From NCBI GenBank assembly GCA_001724265.1, contig MEDY01000402.1, positions 1 to 57,107 on the forward strand: 57,107 nt of DNA. The letters run 5' to 3'. Positions 4,365-53,764 of this stretch are shown in pieces. The notes beneath the pieces are model-generated. The model did no database searches, was not told the origin of the DNA, and saw only the letters and a program-made list of their open reading frames with translations. Made by a program: the position numbers and the translations under genes. How positions within the stretch are numbered: the stretch's first letter is position 1; every line of letters begins with the position of its first letter. The DNA is from Rhizaria sp. SCN 62-66 (lineage: Eukaryota).

Positions 4365-7300
4365 TTAAAGCGTCGCAACGGGCACTCCTGTCACGCCAGC
4401 GTCAGCACCACCAGCAGCAGTAGCAGCAGTCGGGGCAGCGCCATTGCCGTGGCCGTTGTCGCCGTCGTCGTCGTCGTTGGCGGGCGTGGCGCCCGCGGCC
4501 AGCGCGGCCTCGCTGTCTGCCGCCGCCGCCGCCGCCGCCTCTTCCGCGCGCGCGCGCGCTCTGGCAGCGACCGCAGCCGCGACGGCCGCGGCGCGCACCG
4601 CCGCCTTGCGCCGGGCCTCGGCCAACGAGGTCGCGGTGACCGGCGGCGGCACATAGCCTGGCGCGCGCTTGCGAGCTTCGTCGGCCGCCATCTCGGCAGC
4701 GAGCGCGGCGGCGGCGTCGGGGCCCAGGGCCTCGGCGGTGGCCGCGATGGCGGCGGCCTCGGCCTCGGCCTCAGGGTCCGGCTCCGGCGGCGGCGGCGGC
4801 GGCGGCGCGGGCCCCGTGCGCGGCAGCTCCCACGGCGCCGGCTGCGGCAGCGCGGCCTCGAAGGCGCCCTGCAGGAGCCACGCGTAGTCCTCGGGCAGAT
4901 CCGCCTCCACGGCGTCGTTCACGCACGCGAACAGCTTGCGCCGGCCCGCCGCGGAAGACAGCCCGTACGCGGGGGTCGACGCCGCCGACGGGGCCAGCAG
5001 CGCTTGCACCTGAGAGAGCGAGTATGAAAGCAAAGATAAGAGGTAACAAGTGAGGTATATGCGCATTTTTTTAATAAAATGAATGAATTTACAGAAAAAA
5101 TACACAAGTAAACAATAAAACCATATCATTATTACCACATAAAAACCAAATTTGTCGTGACGATTTCGCGTGCGTACCTGTCGCAGCAGCGCGCCGGTGT
5201 CCTTGAGGTGCCTGTCGGTGACGCCCAGGTAGGCCGTCGAGTCTGCGTGCTGCGGCGTGTAGGCGTGGTAGAGCTGGCGGAACGGCAGGTGCACGTGCGT
5301 GAGCGCGGCACGGCCCAGCGACCATTCGAGCAGCTGGTCGGCCGTCATGACCGCGCCAGCCACTGCAGCGCCCTGGGCCGCCGCGGCCGAGGCGGCGGCG
5401 GCAGTGGCGGTAGCCATCTCGCGCGTGCGCCGCCGCAGCGCGCCGCGCATCAAGATGAGCTCCTTCGCTGCGGCGGCATTCCCGGCTTCGGTGGCGGCGC
5501 GCATGAGCCGCTCCTGCGTGGCCGGCTCGCCGGGCGCGTCGGGCGCGAACGCCCGCCACGGCGACGCGCGCAGCAGCGCCTCAAGCTACGCCGGCTGCAG
5601 CAGCGCGGACAGCATCAGCGGCATGCCGTCGTCGCCGCGCGCCGGCAGCGTGGGCGTCGCGGAGAGCGCGGCGTGCCAAGTTGACACGCGCAGACTGTCC
5701 TCGTCGTCGTCCTCCGAGACCTCGAAGCCGGCGTCGGCGTCGTCATCGGACGCAGCAGCAGCGCTGTGTCCGCCGCGGCTGCGGGGTCGGTAGACCGAAG
5801 GATCTGAGGCCGCGGCGGGGGTTCCGGGCTCCACGCAGGCCATGTCCCACACGGCCCGCGACCGGCTCGCGCTACTAAAGCCTGCCGCAGAGACGTTCTG
5901 GGGCCTTGCCGAGCGCGCGCGCATGGCCCGGCCGAGCGCGGCCTCGAGCGGCGAGCGGCACAGCGGGCGCGGCAGCGGCGCGCGGAAAGGCCAACGCGCG
6001 GCGCGCTCGCGGGCGCCGTTCTTCGAGTGCATGATCGGCGGCCGCGGTGTGAAGAGCTCGGTCAGCAGAGAAACCACCTCGGTGCCGCGCAAAACGCCGT
6101 CGCAGTCGCCGTCGTGTGACGCGACCATGGCGTGCGCCAAGGAACGCACGGACGGGTGCCTGGGCGAGAGAAGAGAAATTGTTATGAAGACTAGATGTGA
6201 GTACTTTGATTTTAGTGCAATAATACAAATGAAACTCATACAAAAATAAACATAATACTTTTATCTCGATATCGCGAAACACAATCGCGACAAATAGACT
6301 TTTGTTTTCATTGTCGACGCAAACTTCAAGTCGCTTCCCACTCACTGGCTGGGTGCGGTGTGTTATTATGTGAAGCATAGAGCACGTACCTTGCGCCGAG
6401 CGTGAAAGCGGCGAGCATGTAGCCGAACTGCAGGTCGTAGGGGTCACGGAAGCGGTGCGACTCCTGCGCCGCGTACTCGTGGGGCAGCAGAGACTGCAGC
6501 CGCGCGTAAATGTGTTTGTTGCCGACCTGCATTGGATAGCACAGAGCAAATGTGGGGGCAAGATGATATGATACACAAGTGAGATGGAAGTCAAATAGAA
6601 TAACACGGCTAATTAACAATATAAAACAGTGCGAATAACCAAAATACACTCACTTAGTTTCAAATACACCACATTTAATGTCTCAAAATCGTCTAATAAC
6701 ACGCAACGCACCTGCGGCTTGTGCGGGACGGGCATGCGGAGGGGTGCCGGGAGCAGCTTGCGCATGAGCGTCTGCGAGCGCGAGAGCACGAACATGTAGC
6801 TGGCGTCGGGCGGCCGCGCGGCGCGCGAGGCGACGAGTTGGCTGTGGTTGAGCGCGCCGGTGGCCGACAGCGCGGTCCACCAGCGGCCGCGCACGGGGGG
6901 AACGGCGTGGTTCACCGTGGGCGCCGCCGCCGCCGCGTCCACGGGCCAACGCCACGGCGGCAGCGTCGAGATGGGCGCCGCCGCGGCCGCGCTGGCAGCG
7001 GCGAACGCGGCCGCAAACGCCGACGCGGACAGAGACGTCGCCGCGTTGTCGTGGTTGTTGGCGCTACTGCCGCTGCCGCTGCTGCTGTTGCTGCGGCGCT
7101 TGGCGAGGGGCGTGAGCGACAAAGGCAGCGCCTGAGCCCGCACGAGACTGCTGAAGCTGTTCTCAGCGGCCTGGATGCTGTATCTGGCACTGCTCGTGAG
7201 CCCGGCGCTAACGGGGGCGCGGACGGAGGCGTCGGCGTCGGCGTCGGTGTCGGCAGTTGTGGCAGCCGTAGCGAATGAGACGTGGTGACGACTCTTCCGA

Positions 7301-10300
7301 CCGCTGCGACCGCCGTTGCCGTCACTCCCTTCGTCGTCGTCACCGTCGTCGTCGTCTTCGTTGTCCTCGTCAGTCTCCTCCCTGCGGTAGCCGTGCCTGT
7401 AGACACTAGAGCTCGAGGAAGTCTTCGCATTTCCGCTCACACTCGCCGTACTCTCGACACTTACACGCTCGGCACTTACCCCGTCTAAGGGGTCGCTCGC
7501 GCCGGCAATCACCGCGTGCATCGGCAGCGCGGCGGCCTCCTTGGCCTTTCGCCCAGACTTCTTCACACTGCTGCTGCTGCTGTTGTGGAGGTTGAGTCTG
7601 GCGCCCGCGCCGGGCCCCAACCCACCGCGGTTCGCGGCGTGCGTGTCCCGGTCATGGCGGCGCCCGCGGCGGCGCTGATGGTAGCCCAGCCCCAGCACGG
7701 AACCCGTCCACGCGGCCAGCGCCTCGCCCAGTACGCGCCGCGTCGACAGCGGCACGTCCGGCCGGTCCTCGGTGAAGGGCCCCGCCGCCAGTCGCACCGG
7801 TGGCGCCGTCGCCGCGTACGCCGAGTGGGTGGGAGAGTCAGGGTGGCCAGCCGAGTCGCGGTGGCGGCGGCGGCGCAGGTTGACCTCGGTGCTATCGCTC
7901 GACAAGTCGCCCTCCGCATCCGCCGTCGCAGCAGCGTCAGTTGTCTCGGCGTTGTCGTCCTCGCCGTTGACGTAGCCGAGGTCGTCGATGACCGCGAGCG
8001 CGGCCGGGACTGTGGCGTTGACCCACTGCGTCTCCCGGTCCAGTGTGGTCTGCGAGAGCGGCCGCATCGCGCCCGACGCGCTGGGCGCCGAGGCCAGCCC
8101 GACGCGCACTCCCCACGGCTCCAGGTCCCAGAGCAGCGCGGCCAGCACCTGCCGCAGGCGCCGCTGCTTGAGCAGCAGCCGCTCCGCGCGCGCCGCGACC
8201 AGGTGCCGAAGCGCCCACCGCCGCGCGCGCGCCGCCTCCGCGGGCGCGGCCTCGGTCGCGGCGCGCGCGGCGGCGCGGGCTAGGCGCTCTTCCTCGGACA
8301 CAGGACTCCTAGCCTTGCTACCGCCGTTACCGTTGCCGTCGTCTTCCTCGTCGTAGTCGTCGTCGTCGTCTTGCTTGGCCTCAGCCTCGGCCTCGGCCTC
8401 GGCGGCGGCATCCGCGGCATCCTCTGGATCATCGGCGACAAAGTTGGCGCCACTCTGCTGCTGCTGCTGGATGTTAAAGCCCCCAGCAGCAGCACCCGCA
8501 GCAGCAGCAGCAGTGTTTGTGGTGGTGGCGGCGGCAGCAGCCGTGTTGCTGTTGCTGCCGCGGCGGCGGCGGCGGCGGGGCCCTGCGGAGCGCGCGGCCG
8601 CAACGGCGGCGGCGTCGAGGTGGGGGCGAGCGGCGCGCAGCATCTGGCTGAAGGTGAGCGCGCAGTCGCCCCTGTCAAAGGCGCAGGCCGCGTCGTCGCA
8701 CGCGTCGTCGCAAACGCCGTCGCCCAGCCAGGCCACGGGGCAGCCGGGCGCGCAGAAGAGCGGCTCGGGCAGCTGTCGCACTGGATCCCTCCCGGTGGCG
8801 AAGGCGAAGCCGTGGTTAGAGCTGCTGTTGCTGCTGCTGCTGCTACTATTGCTGCCGCTACCGTTGTTGTTGTTGTCATTGTACTCTTGGCTGAGACGGC
8901 TGAGAGGGAACGAGTAGATCTTCTCCCCCTGGCCGCCGAAGCCGTCGTCCACCGCTGCGTGCTCGTACTCGAACGGGTTGCGGCCCGCAGCAGAGCCCTT
9001 GGCGCCCGCGAAGGCCGCGGAGCCGACGGCGCCGGGCGCGGTACGGCCTGCGGTGGCGAGCGGCAGGTGAAGCGCGGCCGCCGCGGCCAGCCGCCGCAGC
9101 ACGGGGTGCGCGCGGCTGCCCGTGACGGGGGGTAGCCCCTTGCCCAGCCGCAAGACCGCGGCGTCGGCGTCGAGGCTGGGGTCCGCCACGCTCGCGCCCG
9201 CGAAGTAGTACGAGCCGTCGCCGCCGTCGCTGCGGCCGCCGCCGCCGCTGCTGCTGCTGCTGCTATCACTAGCAAACTGGTTGTTGTTGTTGGTGTTGTG
9301 ACGCTTGTTGCGCCGGCGCAGCGCCCTGATCCGGTCCGGGTCGTGGCTGCCGCGGGCGAAGGCCCCTGCGGAGTAGAAGGGCGCGTAAGAGCCAGTGTAC
9401 TGCCACAGCGCGGGGGCCGGAACAGCCGCCGCCGCCGCCGCCGCCGCCGTGGCCGCCGCCGAGGCCGCGACGGCGGCCGTCGAGGCGGCGGCGGCGGTCT
9501 TGGCCGCGGCGACGGCCTCCGGCGAGTCGGGGCCTCCGGGGCCCGCAGCGGCGCCGTAAGCCACAGAGGCCGCGGCTGCGGCGCGCTCGTTAGCGGCGGC
9601 GGAGGCGGCGGCGGCGACGGCCGCGGCGGCGGCGGCGGCGGCCCTCTGCGCGCCGTTGGCGCTGCTGCGGGCGACGTAGGCGGCATCCGTGGCGAAGACG
9701 GTGTCGAGGTTGGGCGGCGCCGAGGCCGCGCCGGCGACGACGGTGGCCCAGGCCAGCTCCGAGGCCGTCAGCGGCGGCAGCTCGAAGCGCGGCAGACGCT
9801 GCGCCACGTGAATGCCATGCTGCTGGTGCTGCTGGTGGGTGGAGTAGGCCGACGATGAGGACGCTGTCGCGGTCGCGGGCAGCCCGCGCGTTTGCGCGGG
9901 CGGGACGGTGGGGCCCAATGCGAGCATCATGTCGTAGAGCTCCCAGGCCGCGGGCGCGCGGAGGTAGTTGCGCTCGCAGTCGCCCAGGTCCCAGAGACAC
10001 TCGGCCGACATGCACGCCGGGTGGCAGGCGCCGTCGCCGACGAGGTTCGCGTCGCAGCCGGCCGCGCAGCCGCGCAGCTCCCAACGCGAGCGCTCGAGGC
10101 GCAGCCCGGTCGCGGCGTCGAAAAACTCGGCCTGCGGGACTGGCCGCGAGAAGAAGACGTCGTCGTTGACGTAGACATAGTGGTCCGAGAGCCCCGGGAT
10201 GCGGTGCAGCGCCGACTCGATCGCGTTGGATGAGAAGGACGGCGCGTCGAGCGCGGGGCGGCGGAAGATGGCGCTGTGCGGCACGACCGTGACGGCCGGG

Positions 10301-12001
10301 TGCGACGTGTTAAGCCACGTGGGCGTCTCGCCCGACGTCACGAGGAAGATGCGGCGCACCCACGGCGCGTGCTTGAACACGGAGCGCATCGAGTACCGCA
10401 GCTCGCCCAGGTCGCGGAAGCGGTGGTCCTGCAGCGAGTGCAGGTCGGGCGCAGGCGCCGGGTAACCCTTGACGACGCTCTGTGCTCAGGTTAGGTTAAC
10501 ACGGGTGCAATAGTATTGCAAGGGAAATGTGTTAAGTGAGTACTTTACGACCGGATATAAACATGAAATAAAATATAGATCATTGCTTGATAAATAAGGA
10601 GAAATGTGATGAAAATATAATAAAAATATCTTGTTTCGTGTTTACCTTGTAGTTCTTGAGCGACTCGATGGCGAGCGGCCGTGCGGTCCTCACCGCGGGG
10701 TCCGAGCCGTTGATCCAGGTGTAGACGATGTCCATGGGCTCGACGCAGGCGGCCAGTCCGTAGCGCTCGCCCGAGATCGAGACCCAGCCCGCGGAGAGCG
10801 CCGCCGAGGCGGGGTCGGCGACAGCGGCGGGCACGGCGACGGCCGCGGCCGAGGCGCGGAAGCCCGGCCGGTACACGACGGCCCTGAGGGCGCGTAGGCG
10901 GGCCGCGGCGGCCGCGGCGGCCGCGGCGGCCTCGGGGCCCGACAGCAGAGCCTGTGGCGCAAAGACCGGCGAGACGCCCGCGGCGGACTCGGCGGAGGCG
11001 TTGGCAGGGGCCCGCGAAGGTAGGTACTCGCCCTCGAAGCGCGCCGCCGCGGGTGACACGCCCGCGGCCACGGCAGCCGCGGTGGCGGCGGCGGCCGCGG
11101 CGGCGTCGGCGGCCGCGATCTGCGCCAGCTGCTCCGGGCTGTGTCTCAGCGCCAGCGCCCCGCTCTGCCCCAGCTGGCTTTGGCCCTGCTGTTGCTGCTG
11201 TTCTTGTTGTTGCTCATCGAGCTCTAGCAGCGCGGCGGCGGGCGTGTCCGCCGGGAAAGAGCGGCAGCGCGGGGCGGCCAGGCACTGCGAGCAGAGCGGG
11301 CGCGGCAGCCGCAGCGCCGAGGGCCCGTAGGACGGCCCCAGCGGCGACGCGGCGGAGGGCGGGAGCCGGGACCAGGCGTGCGGGCCGCGCATCACGCCCG
11401 TGTGCGTGTGCCAGAACACGGGCAGGTCGCCGCCCGCGGGCAGCAGCGGCGCGGGCGCGGCGGGCAGCGGCGGTGGCGCCACGCAGCGCTCCTGCTGCGG
11501 CGCGGGCAGCGCGAAGAGCGCGGCCGTGGCGTCGCAGAGCGGACACACGTCCTGGTCGCGGCGCCACGAGGCGGGCAGGAATGACAGCACGTCGGTGGGC
11601 GACTGCGACTGCGGTGGCAGCACCGTGACGTTGTTGTGCTTCGTTGGGGTCGCTGGAGGCGTCGTTGTCGTTGTTGATGTTCCCGATGGGGAAACACTGA
11701 TGTTGCCGCCAGTACCAGACTGTTGGTACTGATGCGACTGTGATTGCTTTGATGTCGTTGTCGATTCAGATAGGGATTCAGAGAGCGACGGAAGGGCTGA
11801 AAGAACGACGAGTGAGTCTAGGGAAGGCGGGGCGGGGCCAAAGCCAAGGCTGGCGCCGAAGGCTGACGTCGAGGTCGAGGCAGCGAGGAGCAGCAGCGAG
11901 GCGGCAGCAACGCCCAGCAGCACCAGCAGCAATGCGCTGGGGCGCTGGCAGATGCCGCCTTCCCGGGAATCAGGCCGTTCCCAGGAAGGGTCGTCGAGCA
12001 T
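4365..12001 (-). CDS. GNPTAB: Stealth-family GlcNAc-1-phosphotransferase alpha/beta-like protein (~2,295 aa) with one in-frame TAG at 5586-5588; exons 12001-10646, 10479-6712, 6526-6390, 6159-5178, 5009-4365
   Basis: Domains appear in the expected order: N-terminal hydrophobic anchor, CR1 (PMDIVYTWINGSDP), CR2 (RFRDLGELRYSMRSVFKHAPWVRRIFLVT...FSSNAIESALHRIPGLSDHYVYVNDDVFF), two LNR/Notch repeats (GDGACHPAC..C.WDLGDC; WLGDGVCDDAC...FDRGDC), CR3 (PHKPQ...SHRFRDPYDLQFGY), EF-hand (DGDCDGVLRGTE), CR4 (KLFACVND...FEAALPQPAPWEL). Four GT-AG introns have consistent phases. Stop is TAA. Confidence 0.88.
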
Positions 12002-12419
12002 CGGACCGCTTCACTACGCGTGCAGGAGTGACAGTAAGACGCGGGAAGACGCGCGCAGGCCGAACAGACGGCAGGCGCGACCAAGAAAAGGGGAAGGTAA
12101 AGGGGAAGTCGGGAAAAGGTGCTGCTGGGTCGGGTGAGGGGAAACAGCTTGGCTGGAGAAGATGTTGGACGGATGGGAAAGTATCGCACTCTCTGAACCT
12201 GCGATATCGAGAACCGGGGTGAGAAAATTGAAAAGGAAAGAAAATAGAACAGAAAACACTCAATAAGCGCTGTTAAATGCGTGTCTCACAGTTCAAGTGA
12301 GTCGTATTAATGCATGCGAGGATACGCTCGAACACGCCCTCTACCTTCCCAGTCGAGGGCGGGCAGTAGGGAAGTGACCGTTGTGGTGTGGGAATTGATT
12401 TTCAGCGTGTTTAGTCATC

Positions 12420-13226
12420 TAAGATTGTGTTTTGAAAGAATTAACCCAAATAAATAAGTTTCTCACTTTAAATGTGGCGCTATTTACATGTATCATGTTT
12501 CATATGCATGTTTTCTATGCAGTGTCTTGCGATTCATTTCACATTATTGTCCGAAGGAGCAACCAATGTCATCAAACATCATGTTCATATCAGAAATGCA
12601 AGTTTTGAGTCAAAATAATATGTTTATTCTGCTTATCTAATATTATATAAAATAGTTAATAAGATTATATTTCTCATTAGTTATTTTAATAAAAACAAAT
12701 TATAAATGTAATTTTTAGATTTTATATATTAAAAATAAATATCAATACATTTTTGTACTGTTTTCAAGTAAAAATACTATTAGAAGTATACGCTAAAGTA
12801 ATCAATAATGATTTTTATTGTATCGAAAACATGACTAACATAAAACATTAAATACACATTAAACAATGTAGATGTATAAAATATTAATTAAAAATTGTTT
12901 ACTAAGTATTAAATTAAAAATGATATTATAAAATAAAAATCAAAGACTACTAACAGATTTACACTTAATATTTTAAAATACTATTTATTAATGTAACATT
13001 TATCATGTATTATTTATAATTAGGTAAAACGAGATATTCCTTGCAAATTGATGCTTTCACTGGATCAGGGTCACATGTATGAATGCTGTACACAGGTTAA
13101 GTATACACCACCGATGATTTAAAATGGTAGAGCGGTATAAGTAGGTATTTTATTCAATAATTAGATAGTTTTCAAGGATAAATATGGATAAAAATTTAAT
13201 ATAGTTCTGTTGTGGTTCTGTTGTGC
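12420..13226. other. Extremely AT-rich intergenic island
   Basis: Visibly the most AT-rich ~800 bp in the window, with no ORF-track entries; lies between the 3' end of the 2,668-aa gene and the 5' end of the GNPTAB-like gene. Confidence 0.7.
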
Positions 13227-16200
13227 TTACTTCACTCCACGTGCGTGGTTAGAAGCGTGATCGAAGCCGCTCATCACGTCCTCAGGCGAGATGATCACTG
13301 ATACAAATGAGCCCTCGCGCGACGCCCGCACATAAGCTGCAGCTGCAGTCCGCAGCGCCTTGGCATCCCAACTTCCCGCAGCAACCGTCGCACCTGCACT
13401 AAGACCGCTGACATCGTCGTCTTCGCCGAAGCTAAACAATTCGTCCTCGAACTCCTCCACAACCTCTTCGCTCTCATTGACGGATGCTATGGCACTCTGC
13501 TTCGAGTCTAAGCGCGCCACCGCTGTTGCAGCCACGAGGTCGAGTTTCTTGTCCACACTCAGGTGTCCTTCTCCAGCGACTGCAAAAGTTCCCTCACTCG
13601 CACCCCTCCCAGCGCCAGCCTCCGCTTCAGCTTCATCGCGCGCGCGCTCAGAGAGCGCGTCGAGCGCGTCAGTGACTGCGACAGGGAGCTCATCCAGCGC
13701 TGGCAACAGTGCACGCGCAAATCCGCCATAGCGCGGCGTTGCGGCGACGGACTTGACATCGAACACGGCGACGGCCACAGGCGGCGCACCCAGTGCCGGG
13801 AGCGAGTCGAGTGACACAGTGCGCGCACGCGCGGGGCCGTGAGCCGCCACAGCGACGGCCGCGGAAGGGAAAAACGCCCGTGCCGCAGCGGCCACGGCCG
13901 ACACAACCGCCCGCGCTGCTGCAGCAGCAAGCCCGCCGCCAGCAAGCCCGCCGCCAGTACCAGTGGTGCTACTGTTTGAGTTGGCGTTGAGCAGACGCGG
14001 CGGCAGCGGCGGCAGCTGCAGGACAAGGGCGACGCGTGGAGGCCAGATGACGGGCAGTGCGCCAGACGCAATCCTGACGCCGCTGCTAGCAACGGCCCCA
14101 GTCGCAGCGGTGGTGCGCGCGCTCGAGCTGACTGCCTTCGGAGCATCCGTATCCGTATTGGCCTCCGCGTCAAAGTCGTAGTCATAGCCGTCGGTGACAG
14201 GCTCGGCGACTGTTGCGGCGTCAACAGGCATCTTGGTCTTGTAGAGAGAATTTGCGGCGGTAGCGCTCACAGTGACCGCAGGGAACGCGACGACAACAAG
14301 ATCACTTGCGCCCGCACTTGTGCTCGCAGCGCTGTCGTTCGAGTGCGCGTTGTGACTGTTCGCGTTGTTTTGCGTGCGCGGGTGACGCTTGGCCCCGGCT
14401 TTATCAGTCTTCGCCCTGCCCGCGCTCGCCCTAACGCTGGTGCTTGCGCTGGCGTGCGGCGGCGTGGGCGTCTGCGGTGGCGCGAGCACCGCACTCAGCG
14501 CGGCCTGCAGAGAGAGCGAGGCCCAGAGCTCGGGCGCGGCCGCCGCGGCGTGCAGCCAGCGCGACAGACGCTGCCGCTCCAGCTCCGCCAGCAGCAGGTC
14601 AGACTCGGCCGCCAACAGCGACTGCGACTGCACCGGTAACGGCGACTGCGGCGGGGAACGCGGAAGGGCAGGAATGGGGCCGTCAGGGAGGGTGAAAGAG
14701 GGCAGCACCAGGCGCAGCGCCAGCATGCTCTGCTGCTACTGCTGCTGCTCAGCGCGAGTGCTGCTGTCGCTCTCGCGATCCTGGCCGCGGGCGCGGTGAG
14801 CGTCGTGCTGGTCCCAGTCAAACAGCGCGTCGCTGTCGTCGTCGGACTCGCCAGTCTGCGCCAGCGGGCGTTGCTGCAGCTGCAGCAGCGCCAGCGAGCC
14901 CAGCAGCCCTCCCAGCCGCGCCTCGGCCTCGCTCACCGCCTCACTCGCACCCACATTCAGACTCGGATTCGAACTCGAATTCGTGCGGGAGCGCGCGAGC
15001 GCGGCGGCGGCAAAGGTCAGCGCCGCGGCTTGCATGCGCGCGCCCAACACCACCAGCGTCTCGGCCGCGCCCGCCACCGCCACAGCACCGGCACCGGCGC
15101 CAGTGGCCGCGCTACTGACAGCGCGAGAAGGAGTGGGAGCATCAGAGTCGGAGCCGGAGTCGGCGCGAGCGACAGTGCCGGCAACGCCGGCGGAGGCCGT
15201 GACGGCGGCGACGTTGTTTGCGCAGATGGCGGGCGCGAGAGGGTGCGGCGCGGCGAGCGCAACGGCCAGGCCCCGGAGCGCGCGCCGCAGGGGCTCCGCG
15301 GCCGCCAGCGCGGGCCCCCGCAGCAGTCGCGGCATCGGCAGAGACACCGCGGTGACCACGCCGCCGCCCCCGCCGCCGGCGCCACTGCCGCTGCCGTCGT
15401 CGCTGTTGTCAGGCGCGTTGTTGCCGCTGTGGCTGCGCGGGGAGACTGGCACGCGCAGGAGCTCGCCGTTGACGCTCACGGTCACGCTGCCGCCGCCAGC
15501 TGCGCCGACTTGCGAGTGCGACAGCGAGTGCAAGTGCGCGTGCGGGTGTGAATGACGCATGTGGAGCTCGCGGCGGGACAGCGGCGACAGCAGACGGCCC
15601 GGGCGCGGCGCCCAAAGTAAGGCCTCGGGGAGCAGCGCCAGCGGCACCGGCGCCGGCTCGGGCGGCCACTGCAGCAGCGGCGGCGCGGCCGCGGCCGCGG
15701 ACGGGGGTCGGGACTGCGACAGAGACGGGGGCTGCGACGGTGATTTGAGGTGAGATTTCTTGTTGAGGCGAGCTTTGTGGAGATCCTTAGCTTTGCTGTG
15801 GTCTTGTTGCTGTTGCTGCGACAGATTGAAGCGCAGCACGTCAACGGCAGCCCCCGCGTTGGCCGCGCCGCTGCTGCCGCGGCCGCCGCCGACATAGTCC
15901 ACAAACGCATCCGCGCCGCCGTCGTAGCCCTCACTGTGGCCATGACCGTGAGCGTGGCCGTGGGCGTGACCGCGGGCGTCGTCGGCGAACAGGGGCCCGC
16001 GGAGACTGGCGGTGGCGGTGACGCGCGAGGTTAGCACAGCCAGCCGCCGCGCGGCGCCCAGCAGTCCCGCCACCGCAGCCGACGCCTGCAGCGGCGACAA
16101 CACGGGCGCAGTCAGGCGCGACGCAGACTGTGCCAGCTGCGACTGCCACAGATGTGCCTGCGACAGACGCTGTGACGGCGGCGGCGGCGGCAGCAGCAGC

Positions 16201-19200
16201 GGCGAGGGCGCCCAGTGCGCGCGCACGCAGTCGCCGACGCTGTCGAGCACGTCCCCCAACCACGGCCCGCGCGGCAGCGCCCGCAGCGACCACAGAGCGC
16301 CGTCAGCGGTGCTGCAAACGCCGGTGTTGTTGCTGCCGCTTGGGGCCGGGCTGGAGCGCATCGCGCGCACAGTGGCGTCCGCGCACAGACGCGTGGCCGC
16401 GGCCCACATTGCGGGGCCGTCTAAGTGCCCCTTAGACGCGTCTAAGTAGCCCTGGTTGCGGTGCACCGCGGGCGCGGCGAACCAGAGCGACTCGAGGTGC
16501 CTGCGCACGCGGCGCACGGCCACCGCCGACAGCGGAGACAGCGGCTGTAACTGCGGCAGATAGAGCGAGAGCAGAGGCGCGGGCAGCACACGGAGCAGCG
16601 CCAGCGCGCCGGAGTCGCTCGTGCCCGAGTCAGTCCTGTGAGCGCCAGCGCCAGCGCCGTTGTCGTATGACTGCGGCTGCGGCTGGGCGTGCTGGATCAG
16701 GGAGGGACAGGGCAGGCCGAGGCTGCGGGCGGCGGCGGGCAGCGCCAGCGCCAGCGCCAGCGCGGAGCCGCCGCCGCCAATCGCGACAGCAGCACTCGCA
16801 CGCCCACTTGCACTGACACTGGCGCTGGCGTTGGCGGCGGCACTGGGACGCGACTTCTGCTTAATCTCATGCTGTTGCTGCTGCTGCTGCACAAAGAGCG
16901 CGGCGGCGGCGGTGTCGTTGAGCAGAGCCAGCTCCAGCGCACCCAGTCCCCGCAGAGACTGCTGAGGCTGAGACTGTAACTGCAGTTGAGACTGAGAGTG
17001 TGAGTGCGAGAGCAGCAGCGCGTGCGCCAACGGCGGGGCCAGGACCAGCTGCGCCGCAGCACTCGCACTCTCGTTGTTGATGTGGGTGACCGTGAGCAGA
17101 GCGCTGGCGACCGTAACCCGCAGCGCCTCAGCGGCGGCGGCGGCGCGGCAGGGGGCGCCGAACAAGTGCGCAGCCACCCCAGTCGAAGCGGGCGCTGGCG
17201 AGCGGTCCGCAGCATCAAGCAAGTCCGAGGAGTCGGCGGCAGCAGCAGCATCAGCAGCGGCATGAGCGGCAGCAGCGGCGTCGGCGTCAGCGGCGGTGCT
17301 GAGGACCAGCGGCAGCGCCCGCTGCAGCAGCAGAGCGAACGCGGGCGTAACAGTTCCGCCCGCGGCGCCAGCAGCAACGAGGGTGAGCGGGAGGACTGAG
17401 CTGAACACGCGCACCGCGGCGACGACGCGCGCGTCTTGGTCGGCGACAGAGGCAGAGGCAGTGGCCCTACTATTTGCTGCTGCAGTTGTTGCTGCAGACG
17501 CTGACAGAGCTCGGTGCACTAAAGAGCGCGCGTGGTTGCGGGCCGCCGGGGTCGGCAAGGAGTCCACCAGCGTCGAAGTTAAGTCGCACTCGGAATAAGT
17601 TAAGCCGGAGTCAATGAACACAGCAGTCCCAAGCTCTTGCTGCTGCATTTGCTGCTGCTGCTGCTGGAGCTGCAGTGCGAGCGTCGCCAGCCGAGCGAGC
17701 TCGAGCGACTGAGCAGCGGTGACTGGCGCAGGCGCAGTCGTCATCGTCGTCGTCGCCGCGGTTGCAGCTGCGAGCGCGAGCGTGACAGCGCCCGCGTTGC
17801 TGCCGCTCTGAGAGGGAGGCAGCAGCCACAGCGGAGGCAGCCCACCGGCACTGTCATGGCCGCGAGCGCGAGCGCTAGGGTTCACGTGAGCGTGACTTTG
17901 AGTGTTCATGCTGATGTCGGATTTGGAGTAAACGGCAGCGACTGCGAGCGCTACTGCAGAGACGGGACTAAGGGGCTGGCTGCGAGTGTAAGTATCACTT
18001 AGACTCTCATACAGCGCGAGCGTAAGGGGCTCAGTCGCGCTCGTGACCAACCCGTTCAGACCCTTAGACTCGGTGTAAGTGCCGTCTTTGTTGTTGTCGT
18101 AGCGCGCAGGCAGCCAGTGACTGGGCCAGTGGTGGTGCGCGCTCAGAGCGTCTAGCGTGGTACTTAGACTGCTAATGGGGGCATTTAGATCCCCTGAGTG
18201 CTGAGAGAGGGCGGTCTCGTAGAGACCACTTAGATCCTTCTCCATCTCAGACCCACTTACACCGCACTTGTCACCGCTCTTGCTCGATGCGGCGACAAAT
18301 GCAGCGGCGGCGGCGGCAGAGGCCGAGACCGCTGAGTCTGTCACAGCCGAGGCAGACAGCGGCGTCATTAGCGCGACAGTGCGGCCCGCAGCCTCGCTGC
18401 CGCCGCCGCTCCCGCCTTCGTCGCCGTCGCCGTTGCCGTCGCCGCGATTCGTCGCAGTCGTGGCAGAAAGCAGCAGTGGCAGGCCTGCGTTCGCCGCGAA
18501 GACTGAAGCGAGCGCGCCGTTGGCGGCGGCCCGCGCGCGCGCCGCCGCCGCGGCCGCCGCCACAACCGCCGCCACACTAGGAGACTGCGACTGCGCCTGC
18601 AGTAGCAGGGAGCGCAGCGGCCCCCGGGCGGCCTCGCAGACGGCGGCGGCGGCAACGGCAATCGCGGCGTGGGCATCAGCACTCGCGCTCGCATCGGCGT
18701 CATACCGCAGGTTGACTGCAGCAGCGTCAGCGACATCGGTGACGGCATTCTCATTCTCGCATACATCAGCAGAGGTTTGCAGCGCACTCTGCAGCGATAC
18801 AACAGCTGCCTGCAGCCGCAGCCGCGCCGCCAGCAGAGCGGCGTCTCCTTCCAGTGCGTACGCAAAGACGGCGTCGTCTATGCCGTCTCCGCTGTGCCCA
18901 TCGCTGGTATTGCCGCCGCCGTCTGCGTCGTCGATCTCTGTGCCGTTTAGCGCGCCGTTTCGCAGGCGCGTGCCGAGACGCCGAGTCAGACGGGCCTCGG
19001 CCGCGGCCAGCGCGACTGCGGCCGCGACGGCGGGAACGGGGGGGTGCTTGGCCTGTGTAAGGGCTACGGCCAGGGGGTACTTAGAGCTGTTTGTGAAGGC
19101 CGCGACAAGTGCGTCCGCCTCCACCGCCGCGGCCGTCATAGCAGCAGCAGCAGCAGCGGCAGCAGTGTCAGCAGTATCGGCCAGAGCAAGAGCTGGGGCG

Positions 19201-21233
19201 CGAACAGTCGTTGTCGCAGCAATCAGGGCTTTCGCGGCCGCGGTCGCAGTGGCCAGCACCTGCAGCAGCAGGGCCTTGACGTGCCGCGGCGACACGAGCG
19301 CGCCCACGGTCACGAGGGGCGGCCTGACTTCACCGACACGCGGATTAACATCGAGCGCGGCGGCCACGTGAGCCGTGAGCGCGCGCAAAAGCGAGACTGC
19401 AGTAACAGCGTGACCAATCGCACACGCAGTCGCCGTCGCCGTCGCCGTCGTGCTTGTGTGGCGTTGAGCGTTGTCGGTGCTTAAAGAAGGAATCAAGTCG
19501 AGGTCGCCTGTGTTCGCTGTGTGATCACAAGCTTGCTTGATACTATTGCCAGCCGTGCTATTGTTCGTAATGCTGTTCAGACCTGCCGTCATCTGTCCCA
19601 TATCACTGACTAAAGTCCCCGGAACATCAGCAGCAGCAGCGGCCGCCGCGGCGACGAGCGCCGCCGCCGCCGCGGCCGTGGCATGCAGGCTGGCGGCCGT
19701 CACACGCGCCGCCGCCGCCGCAGCGGCCACGGCGGCGGTGGGCGCGCCGGGGCCAAGACTGACGACGCCGGTCCTAACAGTGCTCACGGTGCTTACCGTG
19801 TTTGCAGTCACTCTGTCGCTTGTAGAGCTATTCGAGCTATTCGAGCTATCATTAGCGTTACCGTTGCTGCGGCTGCTGCTGCTGCTGTTGTTGTTGTTGT
19901 TGCTGTGGGCAACTGTGAGCTCGAGGAGCCTGAGCGCAGGCGCGCGGTCCGCCGCGGCGCGCCCCCCCGCCCCTTCACTATGGGGGGAGGCGAGCGCGCG
20001 CAGCAGCGGCCACGCGACGGGAGCCGCCGACCGTGGCAGCAGCGGTGGCGGCCGCCGCCACGACTGCTGCCGCCCCGGCTGTTGCTGTGGCTGAGGGTGT
20101 GCCTCCACACGTTGCAGTTGTTGCTGTTCCTGTTGCTGCGAGAGGCTGGGGTTCGCAGCAGAGTCAGCGCCGAAGTCTAAGCAACTGCTGCTGCTGCTGC
20201 TGCTGCTGCCCGTTTTCACCAGTTGCGACAGCGCCAGCGGCTAAACTCCAGAGGAGTGACCGTGATCAGCAGCCAAGTAATCTCCGGCCGTGCAGAGGTC
20301 GCCGAAAGCGCGACCACGATTGCTCAAGGCAGCAGCGGCAGCGGAGTCAAAATAATCGTCACCATCGTAGTATTCAGCAGCGTTGTTGTCTTTGCTATAA
20401 TTGTCGCCGAAATCATCCACAAAAGCATTGCCGTCATGATCAATCCCATTGTGATGTTTCGTAGCGGCACGAATATCGTTATCGTTGCTCAACACAGGCA
20501 GGCTCGAGGCGTATCCACGCGCAGGGTGGGAGACAACCCTTACACTGGCAGCGGAGTCTCGTGGGTAGCAGTTCGAGTTAAAGCTCGAGATAGAGCTCAA
20601 CATTGAGCTCGAGCTAGTGTTCTGACGATGTGAGCTGTGACCAACGTCACTGCCGCCGCTGCTGCTGCTGCTGCTGCTGCTGAGGCTGCACCTGTCATTG
20701 GCGCTGCGCATGCTGCGAGTGGAGCAGGAGCTGGAGCTGGAGCACAAGTCGGAGACAAGGGCGGCGGGTCCAGCAGCGCGCGAGCTAAAGCTAAAGCTAG
20801 AGCTAGAGCTAGAGCAGAGCTAGAGCTAGGAGCTGGATACCCCAAATGCTGAGTTGCTAGGGGCGGAGGCGGAGACAAAGCAACACCACTGCGTCTGCTG
20901 CTGCTGTAGCAGTGCGCTGTGTGCGTGCGGGTGCGCCTGGGCGCGCGCGAGGCTCGGGGGCAGCGCCGGGCCCGCCACCGCAGCAGCTGCGGCCGAAGCA
21001 GCCGCCGCGACTGCAGCCGCTGACGTTGTTACCACCGTCGCCGCGGCCGCCGCCGCCGCTGCCGCTGTCGCAGCGATAGGGAGGCCCGGGGGCAGCGAGG
21101 CGCGGGGGGCTGCGCGCTGAGCGGCCACCGCGCCTGCTGCGGCGGCGCGGGGGACGCGGGGGGCAGCGGCGGCGGCGGCGGCGGCGGCCCGCGCGGCGCG
21201 GTCTGCTGCGCGCCGAGTCGCTGCTCGGTGCAT
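13227..21233 (-). CDS. Large, apparently intronless protein of unknown function (~2,668 aa) with four in-frame TAG codons and a weak PX-like segment near the C-terminus
   Basis: ORF-track pieces 20826-21332, 20241-20747, 14736-20219 and 13227-14726 share one frame and are separated only by TAG (20826, 20820, 20241, 14736). There is no TAA/TGA until 13227. ATG at 21233 directly follows a CAG. 'PIPALP...ELERQRLSRWLH...PELWASLSLQAAL' resembles the end of a PX domain (low confidence). Confidence 0.7.
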
Positions 21234-21968
21234 CTGGGCAGGCGCGGGCAAGGAAATTGGGGGCGGAGATCTCACTGTGAGCACATGAAATAGAAGTATA
21301 ACAGAGATTAGTGCGATAGATTTACCCGACATAATGTAAAAGTACTATTGACGGATGTTTGTGGGGTGAAATTCGATATCTTCGAAAGGCTTTGAGGACC
21401 AATGGACCGAAAAAAAGCTCCACCACAAACAGGTTCTGCCACAAGCAAGCCAGCATTGACCTCGAAAGCCCGCTGCTGCTGAGGTCGGGCAGGGCGGTCA
21501 CTGGCGCGGTGAGAGGGCATGCCAGACCCTGTGTTTCGGGTTATAGCCGCCTGGATCTGTTCACGATGTCGGTTGTTTATCTTTTCCCGAGTATTTCCAT
21601 TGCTTTTAGCGCTATTTGTTTTTTATTGTTGGTTGTCCGCGCGTTGTGTGCATGTCTAAAGGCGCGCCTCGCGCGTCAGCTCGGGGGGAGGATCTCCGTC
21701 GGCCCCCGAGCCCGCGCGCTCGGCTCGCTTCACCCGCTCCCGGCCCGCGCGCGATGCGCTCCAACCGCCCCTACCGCGTTTCTCCACATTTTCTCTCGCC
21801 TTTGCATTTGCTCACAGCCCGTTTCACTCATGTTTTGTTGTAGTTTTCTCCGTCCCCGAGCTCATACGTGGCAGTCCCCAAGCCTTCAACCCCAGTCCCA
21901 GCCCCCGCCCCGACGTCGCCGCCGCCGCCGCCGCCGCCGCGCCCCCGCTTCCGCCGCCGCTTGCCGCC

Positions 21969-46331: not shown

Positions 46332-48517
46332 TTAGTTCTTGCCGCCCATGGTGGGGAAGTTCATGGTGACGTTCTTGACGGTCTCGCCGTCGAACTTCCA
46401 GGAGGAGGAGATGGTCTTGATCTGGGTGTTGAACGAGACGCCCTCCTTGCCGTAGAAGTGCTGCGCACCGCGGAAGGAGCCGCGGGAGCCGGTGAAGGAG
46501 AACATGGGCAGCGGCACGGGGATGGGGAGGTTGATGCCGACCTAGACACAGATAGAACACAAGAGAAACAAGAGAAAAGATTCGAGGATATTAGAAAACG
46601 AGATATATGTCGTTGAGATAAAGACGTATTGAGATGACATTTTGACATTTAGTTAAATAACAAAATATTATACATCTACGCAACATATTGTTTGATTTCA
46701 TCATAAAACCAACGCGCATGTCGATGTTTTGCGTGAGTGTGTGTGTGCGTACCTGGCCAGCGTCAATCTCGTACTGGAACTTGCGGGCGGCGGCACCGGA
46801 CTTAGTGAAGATAGCGGCGCCGTTGCCCCACGGGTTGGCGTTGGTGAGCGCGATGGCCTCCTCAAGCGAGGCGGCCTCGAGGCACACGAGCACGGGGCCG
46901 AAGATCTCCTCCTTGTAGCAGGTCATGTGCGGCTTGACACCGGTGATGATGGTGGGGCCGACCCAGTTGCCGTCCTCGCAGCCAGCGGGGGGAGTGACCT
47001 TGCGGCCGTCGAGCAGGATCGTCGCGCCCTCCTTCTCCGCCGACGCGATGAGCGAGAAGATGCGGTCGCGCGACTGCCGCGAGATGACCGGGCCCAGGTC
47101 CGAGGTGGACTGGTGGCCGGGGCCGGCGCGCAGCTTGGACGCCTTGGCCACGAGCTCGGGCAGCCACTCCTTGGTCTCGCCGACGAAGACGGCCGTGGTG
47201 AGCGCCATGCAGCGCTGGCCGGCGGCGCCGAAGGCCGCGCCAGCGAGCTGGTTCAGGGTCGCCTCCTTGTCGGCGTCGGGCATGATGGTGCCGTGGTTCT
47301 TGGCGGCCATGTTGGCCTGGGGAGAGAGAGGGGAGCAAGAGAAAAAACAACACCGAAGACAAGAGTCGAGCAAAAGATTAGATGGAACAGGAGAGAGAAG
47401 GCAGCCTTCGAAAGTAGTAATCAAGTTGATAAAGAGACAGGTAAAATTAATCAATGCAGGTTTAATTTCGTATCCATAAATAAGTCGGCATACCTGGACG
47501 CGCTTGTTGGTCTTGGAGGCACGGGCGTGAATGTACTCGCCGGCGACGTTGGAGCCGACGAAGGAGACACCGCGGATGAGGGGCTCGTCGCAGAGGTAGT
47601 TGACGGTGTCGTGGGCGCCGTGGACGATGTTGACAACGCCGTTGGGCATGCCGGCCTCCTTGGTGAGGCGCGCGAGCACCATGGCCGCGGAGGGGGTCTT
47701 CTCGGAGGGCTTGAGGACCATGGTGTTGCCGCACATGGTCGACACGGGGAACATCCAGAGAGGGATCATGGCGGGGAAGTTGAAGGGGCAGATGCCGGCC
47801 ATCACGCCGAGGGGCTGGCGGTACGAGTAGGTGTCGACGTCGCGCGAGAGCTGCTCGAGCGTCTCGCCCTTGAGGTCGGACGAGAGGCCGGCGGCGTACT
47901 CGACGACCTCGAGGCCGCGGAAGATGGAGCCCTTAGCGTCGGCGACGACCTTGCCGTTCTCAGCGACGACGGCGTCGATGAGGTCCTGCTCGTTGTCGCG
48001 GATCAGCTGCTGCAGCTTGAACATGTAGCGCTGGCGGACGGCAACAGAGGTGTTGCGCCACTCGCCGAAGGCGGCGTGGGCGGCCTGAGCGAGGGCGAGG
48101 GGGACGAGGGAAGGAGGGGGATGGGAGAGAACGGAAGGCCGAGGGATGGGGGAAGTTAGAGGTGGAGATATAGGCATCAAGGTACGATTCTTTTGGGGTG
48201 AAAACAAGTTAATCAAGTAATTCGAGTGATATAGTGTCTATATATGAAAGCTTTATGGTTCAGTAAAGGGTGATGTGTGGTGCAAATGAACGTACCTGGG
48301 TGGCGGCGGACAGCTCCTCGGGGGTGGACTGGGGCACCTGGGCGATGACCTTGTTGGTGGCGGGGTCAAAGACATCGATCCACTGGTTGGTCTTGGACTG
48401 GACGAACTCGCCGTTGATGAAGTTAGGGATGCGCTTGGGGGCGGCGGAGAAGGCGCGGGCGGCGGGGGTGGCGACCGTGGACAGCTTGGAGGCCGTCTTG
48501 ACGACAGAACGGAACAT
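46332..48517 (-). CDS. ALDH6A1: Mitochondrial methylmalonate-semialdehyde dehydrogenase (528 aa); exons 48517-48296, 48084-47494, 47316-46753, 46541-46332
   Basis: Presequence [16 protein letters not shown], then '[17 protein letters not shown]', 'LKPSEKTP', 'SFVGS', '[13 protein letters not shown]', 'YKEEIFGPV', '[32 protein letters not shown]'. Stop is TAA. Confidence 0.97.

Positions 48518-53667: not shown

Positions 53668-53764
<97 letters not shown>

What the first reader, a model, noticed from the sequence alone, without database searches (positions are those of the whole stretch)
5586..20828. Alternative nuclear genetic code: TAG appears reassigned to a sense codon (probably Gln) while TAA and TGA remain stops
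Seen: five in-frame TAGs on the minus strand (5586-88, 14736-38, 20241-43, 20820-22, 20826-28) split two genes, and each frame resumes with no indel and no intron-like sequence. No internal TAA/TGA occurs in these exons. All 11 visible gene ends use TAA (8: 2118, 4365, 13227, 30802, 34464, 37227, 38635, 46332) or TGA (3: 25135, 33455, 42827), never TAG. The contexts EQQQ*QQS, SS*L*LC, GV*PLA and PA*LEA all fit Gln. Known: UAA and UAG are almost always reassigned together in eukaryotes. Uncoupled cases are few: the fornicate Iotanema (UAG=Gln), an uncultured rhizarian (UAG=Leu) and some ciliates. Inference: this GC-rich organism with aerobic-mitochondrial genes resembles neither a fornicate nor a typical ciliate, so it may be an independent origin. 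TAG is rare relative to CAG and absent from the compact housekeeping genes, which suggests a young or low-usage reassignment.
Basis: partly seen in the sequence, partly recalled or inferred. Interest (0 to 1): 0.95.

Follow-up and report, generated by a model that had tools for sequence, protein, structure and literature searches.

The report
TAG read as a sense codon
An uncultured, GC-rich eukaryote from wastewater bioreactors carries the stop codon TAG inside otherwise intact, conserved genes and ends its genes only with TAA or TGA, so it most likely reads TAG as an amino acid, a rare kind of change to the genetic code.

Summary
Two are secure: 5586-5588 and 14736-14738 lie in GC3-rich exon sequence with the same coding frame on both sides and nothing intron-like within 400 nt. 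TAG 5586 lies in an exon of a Stealth/GNPTAB-like gene. Full-length relatives align colinearly across it, and 13 invariant residues plus the CR4 region follow it. TAG 20241 is ambiguous, because it could be the 3' end of an in-frame 303-nt intron. The pair at 20820/20826 sits in a (CTCTAG)n microsatellite of uncertain coding status.

New independent support: two related metagenome contigs (L002, L003) carry an in-frame TAG in the conserved CR2-LNR block of the same gene family, and the differences between them are mostly synonymous.

I verified 11 gene ends: 7 TAA, 4 TGA, 0 TAG.

Caveats:
- TAG usage is very low (2 of 7017 codons).
- 68% of one-step nonsense mutations here would give TAG anyway.
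- No tRNA, eRF1, genome or spliced RNA could be examined.
- The taxon is unresolved.

Verdict: TAG as a low-usage sense codon, probably Gln, with TAA and TGA kept as stops, confidence about 0.7. It is a new member of a known kind.

The parts
5586..5588 (-). In-frame TAG no. 1 (secure), inside an exon of the Stealth/GNPTAB-like gene A, between the EF-hand-like stretch and conserved downstream motifs plus CR4
   Evidence: GC3 is 0.88-0.96 on both sides. It aligns to T of P0007/P0155 in a colinear alignment.
5178..6159 (-). Exon of gene A that holds TAG no. 1. Acceptor AG is at 6161-6160 and donor GT at 5177-5176. The frame is fixed by the upstream CR3 exon.
   Evidence: Thirteen invariant residues (W279 to G312 of the exon) lie downstream of the TAG.
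5010..5177 (-). AT-rich intron (168 nt, GTACGC...CTCAG, GC 0.32). It is absent from relatives P0007 and P0009.
4365..5009 (-). Last exon of gene A, with the Stealth CR4-like region and the TAA stop at 4365-4367
   Evidence: CR4 at 24.0 bits, below the 27.4 cut-off; aligns to the C-termini of P0007 and P0009
6390..6527 (-). CR3-like exon of gene A (…ESHRFRDPYDLQFGY…)
   Evidence: aligned to P0007 and P0009
6613..10485 (-). Long open frame of gene A with Stealth CR2 and two Notch/LNR modules. It has no internal stop of any kind in 1290 codons.
   Evidence: (CR2 1.5e-39, Notch 1.9e-10)
10580..12010 (-). 5' open frame of gene A, with a CR1-like motif near its end
   Evidence: (CR1 at 23.9 bits, below the 27.2 cut-off)
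14736..14738 (-). In-frame TAG no. 2 (secure), inside a CAG run (gag cag cag cag TAG cag cag agc) of gene B
   Evidence: There are 1834 open codons upstream and 502 downstream in the same frame, with a coding GC signature on both sides.
13227..20240 (-). Gene B main reading frame: a low-complexity A/S/Q-rich protein with no Pfam family, ending in TAA at 13227-13229
20241..20243 (-). In-frame TAG no. 3 (ambiguous). It is either a sense codon or the 3' end of a possible in-frame 303-nt intron running 20543 to 20241.
20780..20830 (-). (CTCTAG)n microsatellite holding TAGs 20820-22 and 20826-28. Its coding status is uncertain.
   Evidence: One search shows a 1-nt length variant after 20815 in DNA runs, at depths inflated by repeats.

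Best explanation
The organism is an uncultured eukaryote from bioreactor and wastewater metagenomes. It has GC-rich exons and AT-rich GTACG...YAG introns. It most likely decodes UAG as an amino acid, probably glutamine, at very low usage, and keeps UAA and UGA as its terminators.

Shown:
- In-frame TAGs sit in exon sequence that is colinear with relatives.
- A further in-frame TAG sits in a conserved block of two related contigs.
- All verified gene ends use TAA or TGA.

Inferred:
- The mechanism. By analogy with published UAG-only codes, this would be a tRNA with anticodon CUA, derived by one anticodon change from tRNA-Gln(CUG), together with an eRF1 that no longer releases at UAG.
- That UAG never terminates in this organism.
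- The identity of the amino acid.
For: 1. Gene A (Stealth/GNPTAB-like: CR2 1.5e-39, LNR 1.9e-10). The frame is fixed by the CR3 exon and runs through an EF-hand-like stretch into TAG 5586. It continues in the same exon through 13 residues that are invariant in 4 of 4 aligned sequences, then into the CR4 exon. Relatives P0007, P0155 and P0009 are colinear across the TAG with no gap.

2. GC3 is 0.88-0.96 on both sides of TAG 5586 and 0.85-0.87 on both sides of TAG 14736. GC over the 200 nt after these TAGs is 0.78 and 0.72, against 0.33-0.53 after the 11 verified stops.

3. Eight of 8 mapped introns begin GTACG or GTATG. They are 126-230 nt long and 27-41% GC, and each has a 60-nt window at or below 27% GC. 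No 60-nt window within +-400 nt of TAG 5586 or TAG 14736 is below 65% or 58% GC.

4. Relatives L002 and L003 are 69% and 66% identical to the window protein in CR2+LNR. Both carry TAG in the block LERAAWKL-TAG-NCNSGCDTQFLGDGVCHP, aligned one to one with the window and 17 homologues.

5. L002 and L003 differ by 7 synonymous and 3 non-synonymous codons in the 128 conserved codons around that TAG. The binomial P of 3 or fewer of 10 non-synonymous under neutrality is 0.0035. In the conserved blocks downstream of the TAG the counts are 5 synonymous and 3 non-synonymous.

6. Gene ends: 0 TAG of 11 verified (7 TAA, 4 TGA).

7. No in-frame TAA or TGA, and no frame break, occurs in the window's coding frames.

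8. DNA contigs of run X3 (a different sample and study than the possible source run X1) match across 5586 and 14736.

9. For Gln: the nearest relative P0005 has Q at the L002/L003 TAG column. The other relatives have R, T, G, R and H, and the 14 more distant sequences in that alignment have P. None has Leu. TAG 14736 lies within a CAG run.
Against: - Few sites: 2 secure TAGs in the window plus one shared site in relatives. TAG is 2 of 7017 counted codons, against CAG 203 and CAA 42.
- Both secure window sites lie in weakly conserved or low-complexity stretches.
- With this codon usage 68% of one-step nonsense mutations give TAG, so 'only TAG' is expected in about 1 case in 5 under a nonsense null.
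- Only 11 termini were seen. P(0 TAG) is 0.02-0.17 depending on the assumed TAG share.
- L002 has a 1-nt gap in a C-run relative to L003, about 520 nt after the TAG. This shifts its frame, so it is either an assembly error or a decaying copy. Only L003 is clean.
- CR1 and CR4 score below Pfam's cut-offs.
- No tRNA is in the window, no genome is held, and no eRF1 was seen.
- The RNA-library contigs over gene A also cover the 5010-5177 intron, so they are unspliced. They say nothing about mature mRNA.
- Three of the 4 sites have C after TAG, the leakiest termination context by my recollection, which also fits readthrough.
Confidence: 0.7

Rival explanations
1. The code is standard or ambiguous, with efficient or leaky readthrough. 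UAG is still a terminator in this organism but is read through at these sites by a near-cognate tRNA or a natural suppressor. UAG would then have a dual meaning depending on context.
For: - Very low TAG usage: 2 of 7017 codons.
- Three of 4 sites have C at +4: tag ctt, tag cag, tag ccg; the fourth is tag aac.
- Only 11 termini were seen, so TAG terminators elsewhere are not excluded.
Against: - The L002/L003 TAG sits in the middle of the enzyme, between CR2 and the LNR. TAG 5586 precedes conserved motifs and CR4, so low-efficiency readthrough would give mostly truncated protein.
- 0 of 11 termini use TAG.
Confidence: 0.13
2. Nonsense alleles or young pseudogenes under the standard code. The TAGs are recent C-to-T or similar mutations in genes that are decaying or are truncated in this population.
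For: - 68% of one-step nonsense mutations would be TAG here.
- TAG 14736 is one transition away from the surrounding CAGs.
- Gene A belongs to a family with several copies in relatives: P0005 and P0155 are both recorded on contigs of 151,102 bases.
- L002 also carries a frame-shifting gap.
Against: - Apart from the TAGs there is no frame break and no TAA or TGA in the two long frames (2706 and 632 codon positions translated).
- The coding GC3 signature is undiminished after the TAGs.
- The TAG is shared by L002 and L003 with mostly synonymous divergence around it (7 to 3, P = 0.0035).
- Two of roughly 13 genes in one window, plus a relative, would all have to be freshly broken by the same codon.
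Confidence: 0.07
3. The TAGs never reach the ribosome. They are removed by atypical GC-rich introns, or changed by RNA editing such as UAG to CAG.
For: - TAG 20241 could be the acceptor of an in-frame 303-nt intron beginning GTAAGG at 20543.
- Introns here often end in TAG|.
- No spliced RNA was seen, so this is untested.
Against: - Relatives align residue for residue across TAG 5586 and across the L002/L003 TAG, so nothing is missing there.
- Eight of 8 mapped introns are AT-rich with GTAYG donors, and no such sequence lies within 400 nt of 5586 or 14736.
- An RNA-library contig (5328-6110) carries the genomic letters at 5586-88, although it may be pre-mRNA or DNA.
Confidence: 0.05

Closest known systems
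Iotanema spirale (Fornicata) nuclear code: UAG = Gln, UAA and UGA stops (PMC5304391; abstract and passages read)
   Same: Only UAG is a sense codon, and UAA and UGA terminate. UAG is scarce in that organism's coding sequences too. Gln is the favoured meaning here.
   Different: Iotanema is an anaerobic metamonad. This contig encodes mitochondrial-type proteins (LETM1, methylmalonate-semialdehyde dehydrogenase, an MSS51-like protein) and is 62% GC. No phylogenetic link was shown.
Rhizarian exLh (Sainouroidea): UAG = Leu, with termini 56 UAA and 15 UGA (PMC5304391; passages read)
   Same: A UAG-only reassignment in a non-ciliate, with UAA preferred over UGA at termini (here 7 to 4). Sainouroids such as Rosculus occur in sewage (PMC8827150; passages read).
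   Different: UAG there falls on conserved Leu positions (82 of 86 hyperconserved sites). Here the aligned residues are Q, R, T, G, R, H and P, never Leu. The only sainouroid genome I found described, Rosculus vilicus, is 37.7% GC (PMC10770858; passages read), against 62% here. exLh has 384 in-frame UAGs in 71 genes, far denser than here.
Phyllopharyngean ciliates and Protocruzia tuzeti (UAG = Gln or Leu, UAA stop), Scotinosphaera (UAG = Ser), Oligohymenophorea sp. PL0344 (UAA = Lys, UAG = Glu) (PMC11687900, introduction and discussion passages read; PMC10553269, search listing and abstract only)
   Same: The meanings of UAG and UAA are uncoupled, and UAA is the preferred stop.
   Different: This is not ciliate-like. 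It is a 57-kb multi-gene contig at 62% GC with 126-230 nt AT-rich introns. No chloroplast-related gene was seen. Those reports rest on whole genomes or transcriptomes with suppressor tRNAs identified, which could not be done here.
Programmed stop-codon readthrough at leaky UAG contexts in standard-code eukaryotes
   Same: UAG followed by C at 3 of 4 sites, and low frequency of sites.
   Different: Known readthrough extends C-termini at modest efficiency. Here the TAGs interrupt the body of the proteins, ahead of conserved domains.

Membership tests
Nuclear code variant with UAG as sense and UAA/UGA as stops (UAG-only reassignment) | In-frame UAG within coding sequence that is homologous and colinear with orthologues | tested here: met
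   TAG 5586 in the window exon against P0007, P0155 and P0009. TAG in the conserved CR2-LNR block of L002 and L003 against 18 other sequences.
Nuclear code variant with UAG as sense and UAA/UGA as stops (UAG-only reassignment) | UAG absent from bona fide termination sites genome-wide | tested here: inconclusive
   0 of 11 verified ends in the window. No genome is held. P is 0.02-0.17 under the standard code.
Nuclear code variant with UAG as sense and UAA/UGA as stops (UAG-only reassignment) | UAA and UGA function as terminators | tested here: met
   7 TAA and 4 TGA ends, each with a coding signature upstream and an AT-rich sequence downstream. The TAA end of gene A follows the region aligned to the C-termini of P0007 and P0009.
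Nuclear code variant with UAG as sense and UAA/UGA as stops (UAG-only reassignment) | A cognate tRNA with anticodon CUA | not testable with these tools
   ARAGORN found 0 tRNA genes in the window and Rfam found 0 families. No genome is held.
Nuclear code variant with UAG as sense and UAA/UGA as stops (UAG-only reassignment) | eRF1 domain 1 altered so that UAG is not recognised | not testable with these tools
   No eRF1 gene is in the window, and no further contigs of the organism could be fetched.
Nuclear code variant with UAG as sense and UAA/UGA as stops (UAG-only reassignment) | UAG retained in mature mRNA and translated (RNA reads, peptides) | tested here: inconclusive
   An RNA-library contig covering 5328-6110 is colinear across TAG 5586, but sister contigs also cover the 5010-5177 intron, so the RNA is unspliced or the material is DNA.
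UAG = Gln specifically | UAG falls on columns occupied by Gln in relatives | tested here: inconclusive
   One column has Q in the nearest relative (P0005) and R, T, G, R, H and P in others. One column has T in P0007 and P0155. One site lies in a CAG run. No hyperconserved column was available.
Stealth / GlcNAc-1-phosphotransferase-like proteins (gene A, the host of TAG 5586) | Conserved regions CR1 to CR4, with LNR modules in the eukaryotic form | tested here: met
   CR2 at 134.9 bits (cut-off 39.4) and Notch/LNR at 41.4 bits (cut-off 21.2). CR1 (23.9 against 27.2) and CR4 (24.0 against 27.4) are below their cut-offs but align to full-length relatives. CR3 was seen by alignment only.

The most novel reading that the evidence does not exclude
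This is a previously unsampled eukaryotic lineage with no named sister in a methylmalonate-semialdehyde dehydrogenase tree. It has independently turned UAG into a glutamine codon and is caught at an early stage. UAG has already vanished from gene ends, but it has re-entered coding sequence at only about 0.3 per 1000 codons, mostly by CAG-to-TAG drift in unconstrained stretches. That would be a natural snapshot of the codon-capture route to reassignment in a GC-rich genome, where loss of UAG terminators is not what mutation pressure would predict.
Probability: 0.35. Interest if true: 0.85.

Novelty: new member of a known kind. Interest (0 to 1): 0.7.

Why it matters
Codes in which UAG and UAA mean different things are rare. 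From the passages I read in PMC11687900 and PMC5304391, the known cases are one rhizarian, Iotanema, Scotinosphaera and some ciliates. They bear on why the two codons are usually coupled.

A further non-ciliate case would add an independent data point. This one has a GC-rich genome, very low UAG usage and a preference for TAA as stop. It would also offer a way to tell codon capture from an ambiguous-intermediate route.

There is a practical side too. Gene callers using the standard code will truncate or split this organism's proteins in wastewater metagenomes. The collection's entry for gene B (P0156, 1789 aa) matches only 40% of the queried part at 100% identity, which fits a model that ends at TAG 14736.

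Tried and rejected
- No whole genome is held for the window, so Codetta-type inference and tRNA or eRF1 searches were impossible.
- RNA evidence (the single read-laying run). Only assembled contigs were available. The poly(A) metatranscriptome run X5 gave a contig (5328-6110) colinear across TAG 5586. Other X5 contigs (4837-5113, 5073-5293) cover the 5010-5177 intron. I therefore do not count this as evidence that the TAG is in mature mRNA. X5 had zero or near-zero depth over the AT-rich intergenic stretch 12294-13435, but its coverage is patchy (0.18 of sampled words). Most joints and loose ends in that output come from GC-rich simple repeats.
- The X4 contig 20218-20644 has only 23 letters beyond TAG 20241, so I did not count it as bridging.
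- The search for homologous proteins with the gene A C-terminal part found nothing, because full-length relatives fell outside the length window. With gene B residues 1500-2337 it found only the organism's own entry, P0156. No orthologue evidence exists for TAG 14736 or TAG 20241.
- Scans for more DNA of the lineage. Metagenome contigs gave only 3 short loci. Two genome-contig scans and one viral-contig scan gave none.
- Taxonomy. The protein atlas, cluster look-ups and a 31-row methylmalonate-semialdehyde dehydrogenase tree gave no named close relative. These 31 rows were picked from the 120 listed hits: the best-matching unnamed sequences, four MMETSP entries and every one I could name.
- I considered a sainouroid (Rosculus-like) origin because of habitat and the exLh precedent. 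Nothing supports it, and R. vilicus is 37.7% GC (PMC10770858).
- TAG 32913, an apparent fourth in-frame TAG in the TBC gene, is rejected because it lies in an AT-rich intron.
- The apparent TGA end at 55815 is rejected as a gene end because it is intronic.
- I did not see the supplementary tables of PMC5304391 and PMC11687900 (supplements are closed). They may hold composition and codon-usage data that would sharpen the comparison with exLh and Iotanema.

Full report
**What the window is.**
The window is 57 kb at 62% GC. Its long GC3-rich reading frames are separated by AT-rich stretches. Pfam finds eukaryotic proteins: LETM1, a RabGAP-TBC protein, MAP65/ASE1, an MSS51/zf-MYND-like protein, an aldehyde dehydrogenase of the methylmalonate-semialdehyde type, and a Stealth/GNPTAB-like protein with Notch LNR modules.

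I mapped eight introns by eye and by homology. They are 126-230 nt long and 27-41% GC. Seven begin GTACG and one GTATG, and all end YAG.

The same DNA occurs in bioreactor, wastewater and activated-sludge runs. No whole genome is held.

**The observation.**
Read with TAG as X, the minus-strand frame 13227-21344 has four TAGs and no other stop. The frame 4365-6260 has one TAG and no other stop. So the coordinates are right, but the five sites are of unequal value.

**TAG 5586-88 is secure.**
Gene A runs on the minus strand from about 12010 to 4365.
- A CR3-like exon (6527-6390) ends ...GCA AG|gtacgt.
- The next exon starts after the acceptor AG at 6161-6160 and runs to the donor GT at 5177-5176.
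- A 168-nt AT-rich intron (5177-5010) follows, then the last exon with the CR4-like region and a TAA stop at 4365.

The CR3 exon fixes the frame, which runs straight into the TAG. Three spliced full-length relatives from the protein library (P0007, P0155, P0009) align colinearly with this exon. The TAG column pairs with T in P0007 and P0155. Thirteen residues invariant in all four sequences (W279 to G312) lie after the TAG in the same exon, and CR4 follows. The relatives lack the 56 residues that the intron would encode, which confirms that intron.

GC3 is 0.88-0.96 on both sides of the TAG. The exon has no GTAYG, and no 60-nt window within 400 nt falls below 65% GC.

**TAG 14736-38 is secure by composition only.**
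It lies in gag cag cag cag TAG cag cag agc. There are 1834 open codons before it and 502 after it in one frame. GC1/2/3 is .83/.45/.87 before and .75/.50/.85 after. GC over the next 200 nt is 0.72, whereas it is 0.33-0.53 after the 11 verified stops. I found no orthologue of gene B, so there is no alignment evidence for this site.

**TAG 20241-43 is ambiguous.**
The 192 codons before it are open but only about 50% GC, with weak GC3. A GTAAGG at 20543 with the TAG as acceptor would excise 303 nt in frame. Against this, the stretch is less AT-rich and longer than the eight mapped introns, and it lacks their GTAYG donor.

**TAGs 20820-22 and 20826-28 are not secure.**
They lie in a (CTCTAG)n microsatellite with a one-base irregularity. 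The frame upstream has no coding signature.

**A systematic check.**
I scanned all six frames for stops with at least 60 open codons on both sides. In true coding frames, the sites with a coding signature on both sides were 5586, 14736, 20241 and 32913. All are TAG, and none is TAA or TGA. The 32913 site lies in an AT-rich intron of the TBC gene, so I dropped it.

**New evidence from relatives.**
The one metagenome scan returned an identical 2.6-kb contig (L001) and two short contigs, L002 and L003. Their products are 69% and 66% identical to gene A's CR2+LNR part. Both carry an in-frame TAG (L002 344-346, L003 226-228) in LERAAWKL-TAG-NCNSGCDTQFLGDGVCHP. This aligns one to one with the window's LERSRWEL-R-GCAAGCDANLVGDGACHP and with 17 library homologues. 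No intron can be hidden there.

L002 and L003 differ at 10 of the 128 conserved codons around the TAG: 7 synonymous and 3 not. The binomial P under neutrality is 0.0035. In conserved blocks after the TAG the counts are 5 synonymous and 3 non-synonymous. So the TAG-bearing gene has stayed under selection.

One result cuts the other way. L002 has a 1-nt gap in a C-run relative to L003, about 520 nt after the TAG, and this shifts its frame. It may be an assembly error in a 1.2-kb contig, or it may be decay. L003 has no such break.

**Gene ends.**
Seven TAA ends (2118, 4365, 13227, 30802, 37227, 38635, 46332) and four TGA ends (25135, 33455, 42827, 39946) have a coding signature before them and AT-rich sequence after them. 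A TGA at 55815 is inside an intron (donor at 55776, acceptor ending at 55901), so that gene continues to the window's end. The count is 0 TAG of 11.

**How much the statistics are worth.**
- In 7017 codons of secure exons there are 203 CAG, 42 CAA and 2 TAG.
- Most codons end in G or C, so 68% of all one-step nonsense mutations would create TAG. P(4 of 4 TAG) is about 0.21 under a plain nonsense null.
- Zero TAG among 11 ends has P of 0.02-0.17.

The case rests on three things instead: the position of the TAGs ahead of conserved, selected sequence; the absence of any frame break or other stop in the long frames; and the shared TAG in L002 and L003.

**Sequencing error and RNA.**
DNA contigs of run X3 match the window exactly across 5586 and 14736. 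X3 comes from a different sample and study than X1, the possible source. X1 matches across all five sites, and no alternative letter was listed at any TAG.

The poly(A) RNA library X5 has a contig (5328-6110) colinear across TAG 5586. Other X5 contigs cover the 5010-5177 intron, so these contigs are unspliced RNA or DNA. They do not show what the mature mRNA holds.

**Which amino acid.**
At the L002/L003 column the nearest relative (P0005) has Q. Others have R (the window), T, G, R and H, and the 14 more distant sequences in the alignment have P. None has Leu or another hydrophobic residue. At 5586 the relatives have T. TAG 14736 sits in a CAG run. This favours Gln and argues against Leu, the meaning in the rhizarian exLh. 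But no hyperconserved column was available.

**Who it is.**
A 31-row tree of the dehydrogenase puts the window in a strongly supported clade of eight unnamed sequences (100/99 support). That clade has no named sister among Amoebozoa, Rhizaria, Hemimastix, Neobodo, Corallochytrium, animals or rice. Rosculus, a sainouroid common in sewage (PMC8827150, passages), has a 37.7% GC genome (PMC10770858, passages), unlike this contig. The taxon is unresolved, so an independent origin cannot be claimed or denied.

**Comparison with what is known.**
UAG-only sense codes with UAA kept as stop are published for:
- the rhizarian exLh (Leu) and Iotanema spirale (Gln) (PMC5304391, abstract and passages);
- Scotinosphaera (Ser), Protocruzia tuzeti and several phyllopharyngean ciliates (PMC11687900, passages).

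PMC5304391 proposes that a tRNA(CUA) arises by a single anticodon change from tRNA-Gln(CUG) or tRNA-Leu(CAA). PMC11687900 notes that a CUA anticodon should read only UAG.

Two literature searches listed no report of a GC-rich non-ciliate from sludge with this code. That is not proof that none exists.

**Verdict.**
TAG is most likely a low-usage sense codon, probably Gln, in this organism and its relatives, with TAA and TGA as stops (confidence 0.70). The rivals are context-dependent readthrough or dual meaning (0.13), fresh nonsense alleles (0.07), and removal by splicing or editing (0.05). It is a new member of a known kind. It is interesting because such uncoupled codes are few, and because the very low usage may show an early stage of reassignment.

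Noticed in passing
window 11723-12293 (especially about 12140-12215): In the poly(A) RNA run X5 this bin has a summed contig depth of 8607, against 0-70 elsewhere. The DNA contigs of X1 and X3 all break at 12169/12186, and there are loose ends at 12181 and 12215. Some very abundant RNA or repeat shares words with the region just upstream of gene A. Rfam finds nothing there.
   Followed up: partly
window 5010-5177 (-) and about 47316-47492 (-): Two introns, one in gene A and one in the dehydrogenase gene, are multiples of three or nearly so and have no in-frame stop. Stop-to-stop ORFs therefore run straight through them. The likely cause is their pyrimidine-rich coding strand, which holds few A's.
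   Followed up: partly
window 55776-55901 (+): An intron (GTACGT...CTCGTAG) joins ORF 53406-55775 to ORF 55902-57107. The TGA at 55815 is therefore not a gene end, and this gene runs off the window.
   Followed up: yes
window 20780-20830 (-): A (CTCTAG)n microsatellite. DNA runs show a variant with one extra base after 20815, which would make the repeat perfect, at 20-36% of a depth that other repeats inflate.
   Followed up: no
window 5562: One contig of the RNA-library run X5 has an extra G after 5562, 24 nt downstream of TAG 5586, at depth 3.6 of 8.1. The DNA runs do not show it. It is a strain variant or an error.
   Followed up: no
L002 about 860-900 against L003 about 740-790: Relative to L003, L002 has a 1-nt gap in a C-run and a further gap of about 6 nt, which shifts the frame. 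The second LNR module continues intact in the new frame.
   Followed up: yes
proteins P0005 (564 aa) and P0008 (712 aa): These gene-A relatives in the protein library end abruptly in the middle of regions that continue in P0007 and P0009. They may have been cut by the gene caller at an in-frame TAG or at a contig end. Their DNA could not be fetched.
   Followed up: no
protein P0006 (1703 aa): A more distant homologue carries two complete Stealth CR1-CR2-LNR units in tandem in one protein.
   Followed up: no
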